Assembly: GCF_964204865.1 (NCBI RefSeq)
Contig: NC_135253.1
Span: 20,708,001-20,772,000, forward strand
Length of the DNA stretch: 64,000 bases
Direction: 5' to 3'
From: Styela clava
Taxonomy: Eukaryota
Below, one piece after another: positions 1 through 18,000 of the stretch (position 1 is the first letter of the stretch; the number at the start of each line of letters is the position of its first letter). The position numbers were made by a program.

Positions 1-3000
1 ATATCTCAAGCAGTTTGTTGAGATCGAGATTAAATTTTGTTTGAGCACGATGCTCATTGCTTTTCACTCCTGCTTTTGTAACACTGTAAATATAATTCTG
101 TTGAAAAAATGCCATTTTTCACGTCACACTTGCATGGCCCGCCAGTAGAGCTAGACAAAATTTTTGGCCTCTCGTCGAAAAACCATGAGTTAATTTACAT
201 GTCGGCGATCAGAAGTTAGTTTCAGGTTTGAAGCATATTAAAAACACTATCAGAAATTATACTTTTATCTTTAAATAATTTGGTATTATTGTTTTTATTG
301 CTAATATTATTGACGCGATAAAATTTTAAATTATTCATGAGATATGTGCCTTTTCTTCGTTGGTTTTATACGATCACATCACGTAATTCGTGAGAGATCA
401 AGGAAGTGCATTCCCTCAGGAAGTCGTGCAATGCCAACGGCATTGCCAACGACACATCGTCTGGCAAAATAATGCTGGCGAGGAACAACATCGAGAATAT
501 TCAATAAAGCTAATTTTAGTGATTACACTGAATAAACATCAACAGCATAGTTGCTGAAATGTAGTTTGATGAATCGCGTTTAACTATAATTACTGTCTGG
601 GTACTCCCGTAGTGTATGTACCAGGTTAAGGTTAGACCATAATGTTATACTGAATTTCTTTATTTTAGTTCTATTACGAGTTCGGGGACTGTCTGTGTTA
701 GCCAAGTGATTATACCCCCTGTTTATAGGTGTCAGTCCCTTTACACAATGACAACTTCATGTAAATTCGGCAAACAAAATGGTACACACACTTCTTGAGC
801 GCCGAATATTCTACACTGAACAAACATCATCAATATAATTGCTAAAATGTAATTTGATGAATCGTGTTTGACTATAATTATTAGTGTCTGTGTGTTGTAT
901 ATAGTCGTATGTGATAATATTCAATAGCTTGGTATTGCAATGATCTGTACTTGACTATATTTTATTGCTATTTGTCTAGAACTTTAATAAAATTGGAATA
1001 AATCCTGCAATCAACCATGAATGAAAACGTCATCATCATGGGCATAGCTGAGACACTATTTTTTAAACATTTTAATTTCATAAATTCCATTGAGACTGCG
1101 TTGTCTATTGTCGTGATATTTTAGCTAAGAATGACATAATTATCATTTTTCATGAACCCAATTCTAGAATAAGCATTTTTCAACTTGTTTACTTGTGACT
1201 TGGAGCAGAAATACGAGATATCGTGTAAAAATACATATGAACGATATACCGAATGAAAAACAACGTGGAAAGGAAGCTCCAACGCATTTTTGAACCATTA
1301 TTTACTTCATCATCAATATTTCAACAAAGTGTGTGAAAAGTATTATTGACTTTGTACCTTAGTGCATTGGTGAATTGATATGACTCTCCACCACGTTTTG
1401 CCAATTCCTTGGTGAACGACACCAACTCTGGATGACAAATGCGTCCAAAGAATTCATTGTTGCGATACCTAATATAGAAAAATATAAAGTATCAAACAAT
1501 TAAAGTTCGTAAAACATCAAAAAGTCATAAAGGTTTAAAAAAAATTGGCAAAGATCTGACAAAACTACTAACAAAATAATTTTGCCAGCACACAAAAACG
1601 TTCACAGGGAATGGATGAAAATAAGCATCTGTTTTAGGAGTCTCTCGAACAATTTCCGGGTGAACGAGTACTAACATGTCTGCATATTTATGACTGCTTC
1701 TTCAGGCATAAACAGAAAATACCAGTCATACCAGTCAAAGTTTAAAAATGATAACTCAGTATTTAAAAAATAATATCTTTAGTTTTCAATTTGTTGGTGG
1801 AGCGAGTTTTTCACAACCTCTGTGGAATAGATGAATTTTTTTGTACACAAAGAAGAATGTAGTAAACTATAAATATATGTAAAAGCAAACCCTATAATGG
1901 CAAAAGATAATGATCTTCAAAGTATAACAAGTTTAATATCAGTAAACCTAGTAGGTGTTTAATTATATTGAAATAAAATACATATGATAATGAAGACCAG
2001 GGGTGTGCAACTTTTAATACACGAAGGCCAGATACAAATAACTGGCTGAAACCGAGGGCATTTATTCAACATAGACTCTCTTGTAGTTGCATGCAAAAAA
2101 ATTTGTTGTTATTTTATGACAATGGTTTTAGCTTCGTCCAAGCATAGATGATAAACTGGACTTAGGTATAGGCTTGAAATTACTCGCACCAGATTAAACT
2201 AAATTAAAAACTCCTTTCGCGGGCCGCACAGTATTTCCTTGTGAGTCGCATTTGGTCCGAAGGCCGCAGGTTGCACACCCCTGATATTAAATCTCGGATT
2301 AAATATAAACGTGCGAAACCCCTGGACTGTAATAGCAAAACCCTATATATAAATGCGAATCCCAACTTACCAAACACATGAAACAAAGTAGTCAGACATT
2401 GAATCAGCAAAGGGAAGCAGAGCCAAGAGAAATGAGAAAAACCAAGCAACAACTATGGCAACTTGGAGAAAGATTGTGTTCTGAGTTTTGAAAGGCCTGT
2501 ATAAAAATTAAGTTACATTGTTAGATTTTGAAATAAACACGCAGAATTTTTGTTCATTTTGGCAAATTGATGCAGATGTTCTGATATTGGCGATTACTTT
2601 TGACTTGCATAAAACATGACGCAAAGTAAAGCAATATTCGGAAAAAAAAAATGATAAAATTGTCTCGTAATTTTCTTCAAGAGTCGAATGCAAGAATTTG
2701 TTGTAATCTCTGAATACAAAATTATGATTATTGCTGCAAGTGGAAAAAGGATGAAGGAATTTAATCAGATATTTTATTTTTTTATACAGTGCTCAATAGC
2801 GCTTTACGCGACGATCAAAGCCATGTACAAGCGGCCATCGATATCTCAGATATGAAAGAAGCCGCTGTTATTTGGAAGAGCTGGAATATTTTCAGTTCGG
2901 TATTGCCTACTTAGCTTATTACACCCTGGGTGAGGTTGGTATATTCAGAAATAATGACAAATGATTTGCTCAATGGGCGCTCCATAAGTATGTGTACCAA

Positions 3001-15000: not shown

Positions 15001-18000
15001 AAAAACGTTAAATCATTGGTTTACAATCTCTTTTCTTATATTTATCCCTCTGCCTATTTTCGAAATCTCTACCCCCCCGGATTATGCAAAATAAAATTCG
15101 TTTCCGTTATATATGCAATTTTAAATGGATACTTTAGTGTCCCGCAAAAGTCGGGCTCTTGCTTGCTCGATTCGTCTAAACCAGAGGTAGGCAAGGTTTT
15201 ACGACCAGGGGCCAAACATTTTGCCCACCTAGAGTAGACTGGCGGGCCATGTAAGTGTGACGTAAAAATTTACATTTCATAACCAATATTTACAGTGTTA
15301 CATAAGCAAAAGTGGAAAACAATAAGCCTCGTGCCACAACTAAATTTAATCACAATCTCAACAATTTTCTTGAGCTATGTTTCAGCTAAAACATCACAAT
15401 TTGTTTTTAATTTGGTTGAGGCAGCATCAGACGGGCCAGATTGAATTACCCGACTAGCCGGATTTGGCCCGCGGGCCGTAGTTTGCTCATGTCAGGTCCA
15501 AACAGATTCGACTAATTTACTGTTCGATTCGAAATGCCTAGACCCAACCACAATAGTGGGTGATTTACCGCTTCCAATACTAATACTTCCAATACCCAGG
15601 GCTGGGATTTTTGAATGCCTGATGATTTCAGAGTCGAATTAAATATTTTTTCCCAATCGAATGAAATCTCGAATACTTAGAACATATGTAATTATATGTG
15701 ACTTTTTTATATTTTAATCGATCATTCATACACATAAATTACTATAAATTAAAGCACCCATCACTCAGACCGTTCAATGAGTATCCACACACAATAAGAA
15801 ATTTATTTCATCAATAAATCACTAGGAAGAAAATAATTTTATGTCAAAATTGCATATTGAAAACATGGCCTAAAAATAAAGGATTCACTTTGACTATTGG
15901 CGGATAAAAAAACAAGATGGCGGCGTTCTAAAATTTTTGTCTGAAACGGTTCGAATATTTTACCACTAGATTCGAAATGCTCGGTTCCACCATTATTCGT
16001 TATTTCACTAAAATTTACTCACGGGCATAATGAGGTTCCATTGCAGAATGTATTTCTTTTGACGCAAGTTTTCTCGTCATTACATTGATAAAGAAGTTCA
16101 GTCGTTGTGTTGCAAGGAAAGACTAGAAACGAAAAAAAAAATTAAAAGTTCATAATGTTTACACGTTTTCGCTCGGAACAATGCTCTGGACAAGAATCTG
16201 GAGTTAGATTACAGTGGTTCTCAAACCTCTTTTTTAGAATTCTTCAAGTCCCGCGCCACCTCTTAAATAACTAGCTAACAATAAGCTACAAATAACAGAT
16301 AGTAGGGCGAGAGTATGTTTGATTCAAAAACACGTGAAATTAAGTCAATGGAATCGAAATCTTCAAACAATAAAGAAATCTAAATATCCAAGTATGGCGG
16401 GCAAATTAAAATCAAACAAATATTTTTATTTTTAATTAGCTTTGCCCCACGTCACCTCAAAAAAAAAAATGTCTACAACCCCGTTGTGGGGCGCTCCATC
16501 GTTTAAAGAACCACTGAGTTAGAATTCTCGTAGAAAGACCGAAATCCTTTTTTTGTGTCAGGATTGAAATATTTGACTGGGCTGTCCTAAACGAAACTTT
16601 TAAATTTTAAATAAAAAAGTGTTGCACGTTCAAAAATTTTGAAGACTATTATTTGTTCTGTTAGCAACTCCACTGCATTAGTGAATCTTTTTCGTGTGTC
16701 GGGGATTGGATTTTTTAATCGCGAGCCAACAGAATTTTTAAAATTTTAGCAAATAAATAAAAATTTTGAAGACTGATATTTGGCATCTCCACATATATAG
16801 CAGAGGTAATAACTTGGGAACGTAAATCAATGCAACTATTTGTTTATGTAGTTGCAGTCCTGCGATGATTATTGTAGCCTGTTCAAAATTAGACGACAAT
16901 AATTGCTGTGCTGTGGTGTGTTGTTACTTTATTTAACTCTACTCGTCGACCCGCTTGCTGTTAGCGTCAGTAGTTGTTGCGCATTTGTTTTTCCTATTTA
17001 GTAACATTTACTTGTGTTGTATTTCACTTTATATTCGTTTTAAGTGTGCATTAGATTTAAGTTGGATTAAGCCTTATATCGAGGTACTCAGTTTCCAATT
17101 CATAACAGCAAGCACTTATGTGATCTACGACGACAACACAGTTAGGTACATAGCTTTAACCGCTATATCATTGTGTATTGTATACAAATTACTTTAAGGT
17201 TATTTATTTGCATCTGGATAATGCTAATTTATCATATAAATGCAAATACGCCAATATGTCTGACAGTGAAATAGGTGTCATTTTTTTCAATTTTCAGGCC
17301 TAAACCAATAATAATTCAACTATCAGTTGGAGGTTACGTGAGACACGCTGTCCTTACTCTGTTCCTTTGCGCGAGTGGATCCGTATGAGTGTATGGGTGA
17401 TACAGCAGAAGTAAAGATGATTAACTTGTTCTATGAAATTCGAGTCTTGTCACACATTAACACAAATGTAAAATTGTAACGTTTTATCCGAGGTCATAGG
17501 CGAAACGTTACAGAAATACACTTTGATACTTATTCATTTGACGCTAAGCGATGACGACAAAATTAATAAACTCATGCATGACTTACTCTGGCTTGTCACG
17601 TGATGTAAACAAAGTACAAAAGCTGCAAGAAGAAGTAATCCACGATGTGATCCTCGCATTGTGAATTGGTATAATTATTACCTTCTATGTAGTAGATTAT
17701 TATTACTTCATTAAGATCTAAAAAGTGCCAAATGCAGCACAATGTGATATAATAGTAAAATTTAAATGGTAATTTAATTCAATATTCTGGTATTTTAACT
17801 ATTATATCGACAAAACTTCATACATCAAGTCGATTCATATTCGTATAATTTCAATCTTATGTTTTTATATTATTGTACCTAATCATGTCCTATACCAGGG
17901 CTACTCAACTAGCGGACCGCGGTCCGAATCCGGACCTTTCGATTATTGGATTTGGACCGCACCTAATTATTTATTTGGGATCATTAGCCCACTTTTTGAA

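What the first reader, a model, noticed from the sequence alone, without database searches (positions are those of the whole stretch)
1358..17659. Orphan GPCR with ~11 LDLa modules fused directly to an LGR-type 7TM, with no LRRs
Seen: the spliced protein runs signal peptide, ~11 LDLa modules, short hinge, TM1-4. The last LDLa, hinge and start of TM1 share one exon (5265-5391), so an LRR block cannot sit between them, and I found no LRR exon in any intron. Known: RXFP1/2 (one LDLa) and GRL101 (multiple LDLa) both have LRRs between LDLa and 7TM. LRR-less LDLa-GPCRs have been reported as an expanded orphan group in the ascidian Ciona, so the architecture is not new, but I know of no ligand or function. 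Inference: the LDLa array is itself the Ca2+-dependent ligand sensor (lipoprotein, protease or environmental/immune cue). The ORF track shows only fragments of this gene.
Basis: partly seen in the sequence, partly recalled or inferred. Interest (0 to 1): 0.75.

Follow-up and report, generated by a model that had tools for sequence, protein, structure and literature searches.

The report
Sea-squirt LDLa-array GPCR without LRRs
This is the first three quarters of a sea-squirt (Styela clava) gene for a receptor that joins eleven LDL-receptor-type modules directly to a relaxin-receptor-like seven-helix membrane domain; the receptor family was described in tunicates in 2008 and its ligand is still unknown.

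Summary
On the minus strand, 19 exons (17659 to 1358) have GT-AG borders and no stops. They match residues 1-758 of Styela clava LOC120326605 (P0001, 1005 aa) at 98.4% identity. They encode a signal peptide, 11 LDLa cores, a 14-residue hinge and TM1-TM4. Exon 5391-5265 holds the last LDLa half, the hinge and the start of TM1. No LRR was found in the window or in P0001. The 7TM is LGR-type, and RXFP1 is the best solved match. TM5-7 lie beyond the left edge of the window.

The architecture is not new. Kamesh et al. 2008 described LRR-less "LDLRR-GPCRs" in Ciona and made the same lipoprotein or large-complex guess. The gene is a new member of a known, still orphan, family.

One point is not in that paper's main text. 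The family has a 66-109-residue stretch in ECL2, against 11-17 residues in LRR-bearing relatives. It sits just before the YY...C-L-P segment that acts as the internal agonist in RXFP1. The last in-window exon encodes part of this insert, not a TM helix. I propose, as inference, that the insert took over the regulatory role of the lost LRRs.

The parts
17587..17659 (-). Exon 1: start ATG at 17659, signal peptide (residues 1-24, then a split codon)
   Evidence: The AF2 model has helix 6-22. Three residues differ from P0001.
16023..16122 (-). Exon 2: N-terminal part of LDLa module 1, with its core at residue 51
   Evidence: Ldl_recept_a, E 0.029..
14852..14997 (-). Exon 3: acidic tail of module 1 and most of module 2 (core at residue 98)
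   Evidence: E 0.063..
14210..14333 (-). Exon 4: end of module 2 and all of module 3 (core at residue 131, all four acidic positions kept). It is followed by a weak GTTAAC donor.
   Evidence: E 3.3e-6, 27.6 bits; the only exon above the Pfam gathering score..
13657..13826 (-). Exon 5: LDLa module 4 (core at residue 175)
   Evidence: E 0.023..
11950..12114 (-). Exon 6: LDLa module 5 (core at residue 227) and the start of a degenerate Cys-rich stretch
   Evidence: E 7.6e-4..
11069..11186 (-). Exon 7: the degenerate Cys-rich stretch and the N-terminal part of module 6 (core at residue 296)
   Evidence: The ORF fragment had no Pfam LDLa hit. Four residues differ from P0001.
10488..10594 (-). Exon 8: end of module 6 and the N-terminal part of module 7 (core at residue 333)
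   Evidence: No Pfam hit on the fragment.
9696..9794 (-). Exon 9: acidic tail of module 7 and the start of module 8
   Evidence: E 0.092..
8935..8991 (-). Exon 10: a 19-residue Cys-free linker inside module 8 (residues 369-386). It has low model confidence.
   Evidence: pLDDT is below 50 at residues 372-379.
8200..8347 (-). Exon 11: core of module 8 (residue 399) and the start of module 9
   Evidence: No Pfam hit on the fragment.
7181..7291 (-). Exon 12: module 9 (core at residue 450, with an insertion in its acidic tail)
   Evidence: No Pfam hit on the fragment.
6617..6692 (-). Exon 13: N-terminal part of module 10 (core at residue 494)
6092..6187 (-). Exon 14: acidic tail of module 10 and the N-terminal part of module 11
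   Evidence: E 0.081..
5265..5391 (-). Exon 15: C-terminal half of module 11 (core at residue 532, all four acidic positions kept), the 14-residue hinge N549-S562 with the family-conserved FS motif, and the start of TM1
   Evidence: TM1 is helix 563-592 in the model.
4665..4807 (-). Exon 16: rest of TM1, intracellular loop 1, and the first part of TM2 (LNLSLSD)
3196..3374 (-). Exon 17: end of TM2, ECL1, and TM3. It holds the disulfide Cys (C649) and YRL in place of E/DRY, with the invariant R674.
   Evidence: 100% identical to P0001..
2371..2496 (-). Exon 18: intracellular loop 2, TM4 (helix 687-709), and the first 13 residues of the ECL2 insert
1358..1468 (-). Exon 19: residues 723-759, the middle of the ECL2 insert and not a TM helix. 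The gene then runs off the left edge of the window.
   Evidence: Residues 759-1005 of P0001 have no match in the window.

Best explanation
What it is (shown). The window holds the 5' three quarters of Styela clava LOC120326605, or a near-identical haplotype of it. The gene encodes a class A GPCR of the tunicate LDLRR-GPCR family. The protein has a signal peptide, 11 LDLa modules, a 14-residue hinge and an LGR type-C-like (relaxin-receptor-like) 7TM, with no LRRs. The family also carries an insert of about 70 residues in ECL2. The insert sits directly before the conserved G-Y-Y...C-L-P segment.

How it most likely works (inferred).
1. The LDLa array binds an extracellular protein or lipoprotein ligand.
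2. The membrane-proximal module and the short hinge pass this on to the top of the 7TM.
3. There the conserved ECL2 segment acts as an internal agonist in the orthosteric pocket, as it does in RXFP1.
4. The ECL2 insert is predicted to fold as a small domain of helices and short strands. It takes the gating role that the LRRs and hinge play in RXFP1.
5. Signalling then goes through a G protein.

My confidence that the identity and architecture are right is about 0.95. My confidence in the mechanism is about 0.3.
For: Identity.
- The TM3 exon is 100% identical to P0001.
- The 19 exons match residues 1-758 in 731 of 743 whole codons, with no stops.
- 18 of 18 junctions are GT-AG and in the right phase.

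Architecture.
- Pfam on P0001 finds Ldl_recept_a (1.3e-25, 6 stretches) and 7tm_1 (8.2e-17), and no LRR family at E<=0.1.
- There are 11 LDLa cores.
- tblastn with 6 LRR-bearing relatives gave no LRR-region hit below E=1 in the window.
- No tandem LRR motif occurs in any minus-strand frame of 1-17700. Single motif hits number 15, against a mean of 11.8 and a maximum of 17 in 50 shuffles.
- P0002 is an unnamed orthologue of 968 aa. It sits on a contig of only 3305 nt, which cannot hold introns. So in a relative, LDLa and 7TM share one spliced message without LRRs.

Family.
- Of the 34 best hits to the 7TM, 0 carry an LRR Pfam family and 30 carry PF00057. The named ones are Styela, Phallusia, Clavelina and Ciona, plus one snail fragment.
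- In the careful tree, the 41 long-ECL2 rows are split from the 11 LRR-bearing or LGR rows by a branch with 99/97 support. P0001 lies in a 5-row clade (99/96) with Phallusia and Clavelina proteins.

7TM type.
- The best solved sequence match is RXFP1 (7tmw, 7.4e-25), followed by a C. elegans LGR, FSHR, LHCGR, TSHR and LGR4.
- Foldseek gives the same set of receptors.

ECL2.
- The stretch from the end of TM4 to the ECL2 Cys is 72-94 residues in 41 of 41 family rows. It is 11-17 residues in 11 of 11 LRR-bearing or LGR rows.
- Among 136 usable new representatives, 129 have 66-109 residues there. None of those 129 has 2 or more LRR motif hits.
- AF2 predicts a fold for the insert in 2 of 2 divergent members. 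pLDDT blocks are 71-88 in P0001 and 76-89 in P0013.
- RXFP1 residues Y556, Y557, C563, F564, P565 and L566 align with P0001 Y786, Y787, C793, L794, P795 and R796.
- G785, Y786 and Y787 are at least 90% conserved and C793 is invariant in the family alignment. The consensus there reads C-L-P, and the P is kept in over 80% of 39 rows.
- In RXFP1 this segment occupies the orthosteric pocket and is needed for signalling. The 7TM alone is constitutively active, and the LRRs plus hinge inhibit it (preprint 10.1101/2022.01.22.477343, passages).

A functional ectodomain.
- Ectodomain identity is close to 7TM identity among orthologues: 62.5 vs 65.0, 50.4 vs 58.6, 44.7 vs 45.1 and 44.9 vs 45.1%.
Against: - No ligand, expression or signalling data exist for this gene.
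- TM5-7 are not in the window. That the receptor is complete rests on P0001, a database model from another copy of the genome.
- Only 2 of the 11 modules keep all four acidic Ca2+-site positions. 4 of the 12 LDLa-coding ORF fragments gave no Pfam hit. So several modules may not bind Ca2+ or ligand in the classical way.
- The position that aligns with RXFP1 L566 is Arg in P0001 and in the family consensus. In RXFP1, L566D abolished signalling. The ECL2 plug may therefore work differently here.
- The acidic residue of E/DRY is missing; the motif reads Y-R-L.
- The role of the ECL2 insert is inferred only from its position, its conservation and its co-occurrence with LRR loss. On the tree that is one evolutionary event, not repeated evidence.
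- I could not inspect the coordinates or contacts of the models.
Confidence: 0.6

Rival explanations
1. It is a cargo or scavenger receptor. The LDLa array binds lipoproteins or protease-inhibitor complexes for uptake, as in LDLR and LRP. The 7TM serves mainly as a constitutively active or arrestin-coupled endocytic anchor, not as a ligand-gated G-protein switch.
For: - The LDLa array has 11 modules, as in endocytic receptors.
- The acidic residue of E/DRY is lost; the motif reads Y-R-L.
- In RXFP1, the 7TM without its LRRs is constitutively active.
- Kamesh et al. raise lipoproteins or large complexes as possible ligands.
Against: - The activation motifs are strictly kept across 39 family members. 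R674, P870, N904 and P905 are invariant, and W868 is at least 90% conserved.
- The 7TM is conserved as well as the ectodomain. A mere anchor would not need this.
- I did not look for endocytosis motifs in the tail.
Confidence: 0.2
2. Only the membrane-proximal LDLa module matters for activation, acting as a tethered activator as the single LDLa does in RXFP1/2. The ligand is recognised by the ECL2 insert domain. The outer modules would be spacers or co-receptor docking sites.
For: - In RXFP1/2 the LDLa module is essential for activation but is not the main hormone-binding site (abstracts of PMC4837482 and PMC3822782 as shown in the listings; Kamesh section 14).
- The last module is one of only two with a full acidic set.
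- It sits 14 residues from TM1.
- 38 of the 129 long-ECL2 representatives have fewer than 120 residues before the 7TM. P0040-P0047 have no LDLa core at all. So the 7TM with its ECL2 domain may work without an LDLa array. Some of these proteins may, however, be truncated models.
Against: - The whole ectodomain, not only the last module, is conserved between orthologues at about the level of the 7TM. Its length is also kept, at 508-554 residues.
- The ECL2 insert has few conserved positions apart from a hydrophobic framework.
Confidence: 0.15
3. The model is an artefact. It would be two neighbouring genes wrongly fused (an LDLa protein and a GPCR), or a decaying pseudogene copy.
For: - P0001 is a computed gene model, and I could not see its transcript support.
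- TM5-7 are outside the window.
- Intron 4 has a weak GTTAAC donor.
Against: - One exon (5391-5265) encodes both the LDLa half and the start of TM1 in a single open frame.
- There are no stops in 743 codons, and all junctions are in phase.
- The same fused architecture occurs in named proteins of four ascidian genera.
- It also occurs on a 3305-nt contig that can hold no introns.
Confidence: 0.03

Closest known systems
Ciona intestinalis LDLRR-GPCRs (Kamesh, Aradhyam and Manoj 2008, PMC2396169)
   Same: Both have N-terminal LDL-A repeats (1-10 in Ciona), no LRRs and a relaxin/INSL3-receptor-like 7TM, and both are orphans. Ciona proteins P0006, P0007, P0015, P0022, P0027 and P0031 fall in the same clade as the Styela protein.
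   Different: This gene is from another ascidian order (Stolidobranchia, recalled) and has 11 modules. Its nearest Ciona relative is only 39% identical over the 7TM. The long ECL2 insert is not mentioned in the main text of that paper: 'ecl2' and 'insertion' each occur 0 times. I could not see its supplements.
RXFP1/RXFP2 (type C LGRs, relaxin and INSL3 receptors)
   Same: RXFP1 is the best solved 7TM match (7.4e-25). Both have an LDLa module in the ectodomain. Both have the conserved ECL2 segment Y-Y...C-[FL]-P, the TM3-ECL2 disulfide Cys, and a short hinge (about 15 residues in RXFP1; 14 here).
   Different: RXFP1 has one LDLa, a 32-residue linker and an LRR domain that binds the hormone and inhibits the 7TM. 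Here there are 11 LDLa modules, no LRR and an ECL2 insert of about 70 residues. The motif is Y-R-L here and E-K-Y in RXFP1. Arg stands at the position of RXFP1 L566.
GRL101 and GRL101-like receptors (the Lymnaea receptor; relatives such as P0036 from Lineus and P0038 from Lingula)
   Same: They combine multiple LDLa modules with an LGR-type 7TM. On the tree they are the nearest LRR-bearing relatives.
   Different: GRL101-like proteins keep their LRRs, with 4-5 LRR motif hits and LRR Pfam families. They often add CUB or C-type lectin domains. Their ECL2 is short, at 15-16 residues.
LDLR / LRP family ligand-binding repeat clusters
   Same: Both have tandem LDLa modules with a C-D-G-x-x-D-C-x-D-x-S-D-E type core. 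Clusters of 7-11 repeats are typical of these receptors (repeat numbers as quoted by Kamesh et al.).
   Different: The LDLR family has a single-pass anchor, EGF and beta-propeller domains and an endocytic tail, and no 7TM. Here only 2 of 11 modules keep the full acidic set.

Membership tests
Tunicate LDLRR-GPCR family (Kamesh et al. 2008) | One or more LDL-A repeats at the N-terminus | tested here: met
   There are 11 cores. Pfam Ldl_recept_a scores 1.3e-25 on P0001. 8 of 12 exon fragments gave partial hits.
Tunicate LDLRR-GPCR family (Kamesh et al. 2008) | No LRR domain between the LDL-A repeats and the 7TM | tested here: met
   No LRR Pfam family at E<=0.1. No LRR-region tblastn hit below E=1. 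No tandem LRR motifs. A single exon links LDLa to TM1.
Tunicate LDLRR-GPCR family (Kamesh et al. 2008) | TM region similar to relaxin/INSL3 receptors | tested here: met
   RXFP1 is the best PDB sequence match, at 7.4e-25. LGR-family receptors are the top Foldseek hits.
Tunicate LDLRR-GPCR family (Kamesh et al. 2008) | Groups with Ciona members on a 7TM tree, apart from LRR-bearing LGRs | tested here: met
   A branch with 99/97 support separates the 41 family rows, six Ciona proteins among them, from the 11 LRR-bearing or LGR rows. I did not map the 2008 Ciona gene ids onto these proteins.
LGR family (types A-C) | Leucine-rich-repeat ectodomain | tested here: not met
   By this defining feature the protein is LGR-like in its 7TM only.
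LGR family (types A-C) | LGR-type 7TM | tested here: met
Class A (rhodopsin-like) GPCR | Seven helices, the TM3-ECL2 disulfide Cys pair, R3.50, CWxP and NPxxY | tested here: met
   This was met on P0001. Pfam 7tm_1 scores 8.2e-17, and the model has seven long helices. C649, C793, R674, P870, N904 and P905 are invariant in the family. In the window itself only TM1-TM4, C649 and R674 can be seen. The acidic residue of E/DRY is absent (Y-R-L).
LDL-receptor class A module | Six Cys and the acidic Ca2+-binding cluster in every module (the definition of the four acidic positions is recalled) | tested here: inconclusive
   2 of 11 modules have 4 of the 4 acidic positions, 7 have 3 and 2 have 2. There are 59 Cys in residues 25-555. 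Ca2+ binding cannot be tested here.

The most novel reading that the evidence does not exclude
When tunicate relaxin-receptor-like GPCRs lost their LRRs, they gained a folded domain of about 70 residues inside ECL2. This domain now does the job of the LRR and hinge. It holds the conserved ECL2 internal agonist (Y-Y...C-L-P) in check until the LDLa array engages a ligand. If so, this large family is a natural rewiring of the RXFP1 autoinhibition mechanism. At least 129 clusters at 50% identity belong to it among the 146 new representatives examined.
Probability: 0.3. Interest if true: 0.6.

Novelty: new member of a known kind. Interest (0 to 1): 0.35.

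Why it matters
No GPCR is known to be gated by an array of LDLa modules, and the family has stayed an orphan since 2008. It is large: 207 representatives reached E<=1e-30. RXFP1 is a drug target whose activation depends on its own ECL2 and on inhibition by its LRRs. A natural family that removed the LRRs and enlarged ECL2 offers a comparative test of that mechanism. 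For genome annotation, the gain is a checked exon map of the Styela gene and the point that the last in-window exon encodes loop, not helix.

Tried and rejected
1. Pfam on single exon ORFs. The TM exons are too short to reach 7tm_1. 4 of the 12 LDLa-coding fragments gave nothing. Homology of the TM3 exon solved this.

2. Complex prediction with the last two LDLa modules (residues 474-555) against the 7TM (556-935) of P0001. The result was no verdict: score 0.03, mark 0.34, and my alignment was not used. It counts neither for nor against a contact.

3. The protein-atlas search on the ECL2 insert, residues 706-800. No usable hit, and the Atlas has no model of this protein.

4. The listing of cluster members for accession numbers of P0001 and P0003. 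The database was switched off.

5. Literature searches for a function, ligand or ECL2 description.
- 35 papers hold 'LDLRR-GPCR' or 'LDLRR'. Among the 20 listed, 'LDLRR-GPCR' occurs only in Kamesh et al.
- PMC4079206 (passages) says nothing on LRR-less tunicate receptors.
- PMC2246102 (passages) mentions LDLa only in adhesion GPCRs.
- The library holds open-access papers only.

6. The rest of the window. 8 long ORFs between 18480 and 57009 gave no Pfam family at E<=0.01. No second LDLa-GPCR is present.

7. hmmalign gave unreliable ECL2 lengths for three LRR-bearing controls: P0037 (42), P0039 (46) and P0048 (59), with no Cys in the anchor column. For these I rely on the MAFFT values of 15-17.

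8. Rows dropped.
- P0024 and P0035 (duplicated or fragmentary 7TM matches) were left out.
- P0024, P0035-P0039, P0045, P0046 and P0048-P0054 are not in alignments A1 and A2.
- 10 of the 146 new representatives had no aligned TM4 or ECL2 Cys and were dropped.

9. Not done.
- Genome contigs holds only prokaryotes and was not used.
- The supplements of Kamesh et al. (domain maps, EST table) are closed. They may bear on the ECL2 and haemocyte points.
- The window is tunicate, not human.

Full report
What is there.

The window is AT-rich eukaryotic DNA (G+C 32-39%) with no N. Stop-to-stop ORFs on the minus strand between 17674 and 1321 show a signal peptide, a run of Cys-rich LDLa-like pieces and hydrophobic stretches. 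A six-frame scan for the C[DN]G...C motif found it only on the minus strand, between 5368 and 16045 (7 of 7 hits).

I searched the window exon by exon and did not join the exons into a spliced protein for any search, fold or print.

Pfam on 20 ORF fragments gave partial Ldl_recept_a matches for 8 of the 12 LDLa-coding fragments, at E 3.3e-6 to 0.092. Only 14089-14358 was above the gathering score. None of the other 7 fragments matched 7tm_1.

Identity.

The TM3 exon (window 3198-3374, minus strand) is 100% identical to a 1005-aa database protein, P0001. This is "uncharacterized protein LOC120326605" of the ascidian Styela clava. The exon is 76% identical to an unnamed 968-aa protein, P0002.

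tblastn of P0001 places residues 1-758 on 19 blocks in order on the minus strand. Residues 759-1005 find nothing in the window.

The exact exons are 17659-17587, 16122-16023, 14997-14852, 14333-14210, 13826-13657, 12114-11950, 11186-11069, 10594-10488, 9794-9696, 8991-8935, 8347-8200, 7291-7181, 6692-6617, 6187-6092, 5391-5265, 4807-4665, 3374-3196, 2496-2371 and 1468-1358.
- 18 of 18 acceptors are AG and 19 of 19 donors are GT.
- All phases fit the reference protein.
- There are no stops.
- 731 of 743 whole codons match P0001, which is 98.4%.

The 12 differences cluster in exons 1, 7 and 19, as expected for another haplotype of a polymorphic species. The contig is tunicate, not human.

Checking the observation.

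Exon 5391-5265 encodes the C-terminal half of the last LDLa (CDGTQDCDEGSDEC), then CQNC, then 14 residues, then the start of TM1. TM1 is helix 563-592 in the model. No LRR block can therefore sit between the LDLa array and the 7TM.

P0001 has 11 LDLa cores, at residues 51, 98, 131, 175, 227, 296, 333, 399, 450, 494 and 532. It also has one degenerate Cys-rich stretch.

LRRs are absent by four tests.
- Pfam finds no LRR family on P0001 or P0002 at E<=0.1.
- An LRR-core pattern hits P0001 once, inside TM1, and hits P0003-P0006 not at all. It hits six LRR-bearing relatives 2-13 times each.
- tblastn of those six relatives finds only their LDLa and TM parts in the gene. Their LRR regions give no hit below E=1 anywhere in the window.
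- The three minus-strand frames of 1-17700 hold 15 single pattern hits, against a mean of 11.8 and a maximum of 17 in 50 shuffles. They hold no tandem pair.

Two corrections are needed. There are 19 coding exons in the window, not 20. The last exon (1468-1358) encodes loop, not a TM helix.

Transcript support.

I cannot see RNA data. However, P0002 (968 aa, Pfam LDLa plus 7tm_1, no LRR) lies on a contig of 3305 nt. Its coding sequence needs 2907 nt. The contig therefore has no room for introns and must be a spliced message of an orthologue.

What family.

A search with the 7TM part of P0001 (residues 556-930) gave 54 proteins at E<=1e-5.
- Of the best 34, 0 carry an LRR Pfam family and 30 carry PF00057.
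- The named ones are from Styela clava, Phallusia mammillata, Clavelina lepadiformis and Ciona intestinalis. One is a fragment-like snail protein.
- LRR-bearing relatives appear only from 1.9e-32 downward. They include GRL101-like proteins of Lineus and Lingula, and echinoderm proteins.

The best solved sequence match of the 7TM is RXFP1 (7tmw, 7.4e-25). It is followed by a C. elegans LGR (8w1z), FSHR, LHCGR, TSHR and LGR4. Foldseek with the AF2 model returns the same receptors.

I built a careful maximum-likelihood tree of 52 7TM regions, with the ECL2 insert columns left out and P0024 and P0035 dropped. In it, 41 family rows are separated from 11 LRR-bearing or LGR rows by a branch with 99/97 support. 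P0001 lies in a 5-row clade (99/96) with P0002, the Styela paralogue P0003, and the Phallusia and Clavelina proteins. That the 33 LDLa-bearing rows form one group apart from the 8 short-N rows is only weakly supported (74/82).

What is in print.

Kamesh, Aradhyam and Manoj 2008 (PMC2396169; passages, section 14 read whole) describe this architecture in Ciona as "LDLRR-GPCRs".
- They report 14 members with 1-10 LDL-A repeats, no LRRs and relaxin/INSL3-receptor-like TM regions.
- They report 14 more "unclassified LGR-like" receptors with short N-termini.
- They speculate that lipoproteins or large protein complexes are the ligands.
- They note that most EST matches come from blood and haemocytes. 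That table is a supplement I could not open.

My searches found no later functional or ligand study, within the limits of an open-access library.

The alignment to RXFP1 breaks into two stretches and skips about 70 residues between TM4 and the conserved ECL2 segment. RXFP1 itself is continuous there, running from residue 548 to 551.

In a MAFFT alignment, the stretch from the end of TM4 to the ECL2 Cys is 72-94 residues in 41 of 41 family rows. It is 11-17 residues in 11 of 11 LRR-bearing or LGR rows.

A full HMMER search of 1.84 billion representatives with family member P0016 found 207 proteins at E<=1e-30. I examined the 146 new ones among the best 150.
- 136 were usable.
- 129 of these have 66-109 residues in this stretch.
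- None of the 129 has 2 or more LRR pattern hits.
- 97 of the 129 have at least one LDLa core.
- 5 of the 136 have fewer than 30 residues there. One of these has 12 LRR hits.
- 2 are intermediate.

AF2 predicts a fold for the insert in two members that are 33% identical.
- In P0001 the elements are helices 711-717, 734-746, 752-759 and 764-774 plus short strands, with pLDDT blocks of 71-88.
- In P0013 they are a strand, helices 526-539 and 550-561, and a strand, with pLDDT blocks of 76-89.

Conserved positions in the insert are mostly hydrophobic: Y-F, F, F, R, L and W. The Kamesh main text does not contain 'ECL2' or 'insertion'.

How it may work.

In RXFP1 the ECL2 segment Y556, Y557, C563, F564, P565, L566 sits in the orthosteric pocket and is required for signalling. 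The 7TM alone is constitutively active because of it. The LRRs and hinge inhibit it (preprint 10.1101/2022.01.22.477343, passages).

These residues align with Y786, Y787, C793, L794, P795 and R796 of P0001. G-Y-Y is at least 90% conserved and C793 is invariant in the family alignment. The consensus reads C-L-P, and the P is kept in over 80% of rows.

The family lost the inhibitory LRRs and gained a domain immediately N-terminal to this segment. I infer that the insert is the new gate. I also infer that ligand binding to the LDLa array acts on it, passed on through the last module and the 14-residue hinge with its conserved F-S motif.

The ectodomain is under constraint similar to the 7TM. Identity to P0002, P0003, P0004 and P0005 is 62.5, 50.4, 44.7 and 44.9% in the ectodomain, against 65.0, 58.6, 45.1 and 45.1% in the 7TM. 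The length before the 7TM is kept at 508-554 residues across P0001-P0006. This fits a specific conserved partner better than a fast-evolving immune sensor.

Several points go against a simple reading.
- Only 2 of 11 modules keep all four acidic positions.
- Arg stands where RXFP1 has L566.
- E/DRY reads Y-R-L.
- The link between the insert and LRR loss is one event on the tree.

Limits.

TM5-7, CWxP and NPxxY are seen only in P0001, not in the window. I could not obtain accession numbers, model coordinates, the taxonomy of unnamed hits, or the paper's supplements. The one complex prediction gave no verdict and is recorded only under Tried and rejected.

Verdict.

The gene is a new member of a known kind, already annotated as an uncharacterised gene. 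The family-wide ECL2 domain and its parallel to RXFP1 autoinhibition are the only new angle. Interest is moderate to low.

Noticed in passing
window 612-748 and 11491-11627 (direct, 80%); 2976-3073 and 11595-11692 (inverted, 81%); 1-93 and 15286-15378 (inverted, 82%); also ORF-like copies at 24871-25308, 29627-29998, 34358-34657 and 48205-48498: A short interspersed repeat family is scattered through the introns of the gene and the rest of the window. Its pseudo-translations share strings such as CEPRW..T and MCTRLG. No Pfam family was found for the one copy I tested (24871-25308).
   Followed up: partly
window 54364-54825 (+): A 153-codon open frame with an internal Met and two or three hydrophobic stretches. 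It may be a small membrane protein encoded by a single exon. No Pfam family at E<=0.01.
   Followed up: partly
window 14209-14204 (-), the donor of intron 4: The only weak splice donor of the gene is GTTAAC. The other 17 donors paired begin GTAAG, GTGAG, GTATG, GTGGG, GTATA, GTTAG, GTACA or GTAAA. The donor after exon 19 is GT.
   Followed up: no
window exons 1, 7 and 19 (17659-17587, 11186-11069, 1468-1358): 10 of the 12 amino-acid differences from P0001 fall in these three exons: the signal peptide, the Cys-poor part of module 6 and the ECL2 insert. This looks like haplotype polymorphism in the least constrained parts.
   Followed up: partly
proteins P0040-P0047 (unnamed source): A tight group of proteins about 580 aa long, with only about 112 residues before TM1 and no LDLa core. 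They have a 94-residue ECL2 stretch and sit on a very long branch (2.6) inside the family. They may correspond to the 'unclassified LGR-like' class of Kamesh et al.
   Followed up: partly
window 3213-3205 (-), residues 673-675 of P0001: The E/DRY motif reads Y-R-L. The Arg is invariant in 39 family members, but the acidic residue is not conserved in the family (consensus x-R-L). RXFP1 has E-K-Y at the same place.
   Followed up: partly
protein P0196 (nameless library): A 545-aa representative with two LDLa cores, no LRR motif hit and a short ECL2 (14 residues). It is either a truncated RXFP-like model or an LRR-less receptor without the insert. If the latter, it is an exception to the rule.
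   Followed up: no
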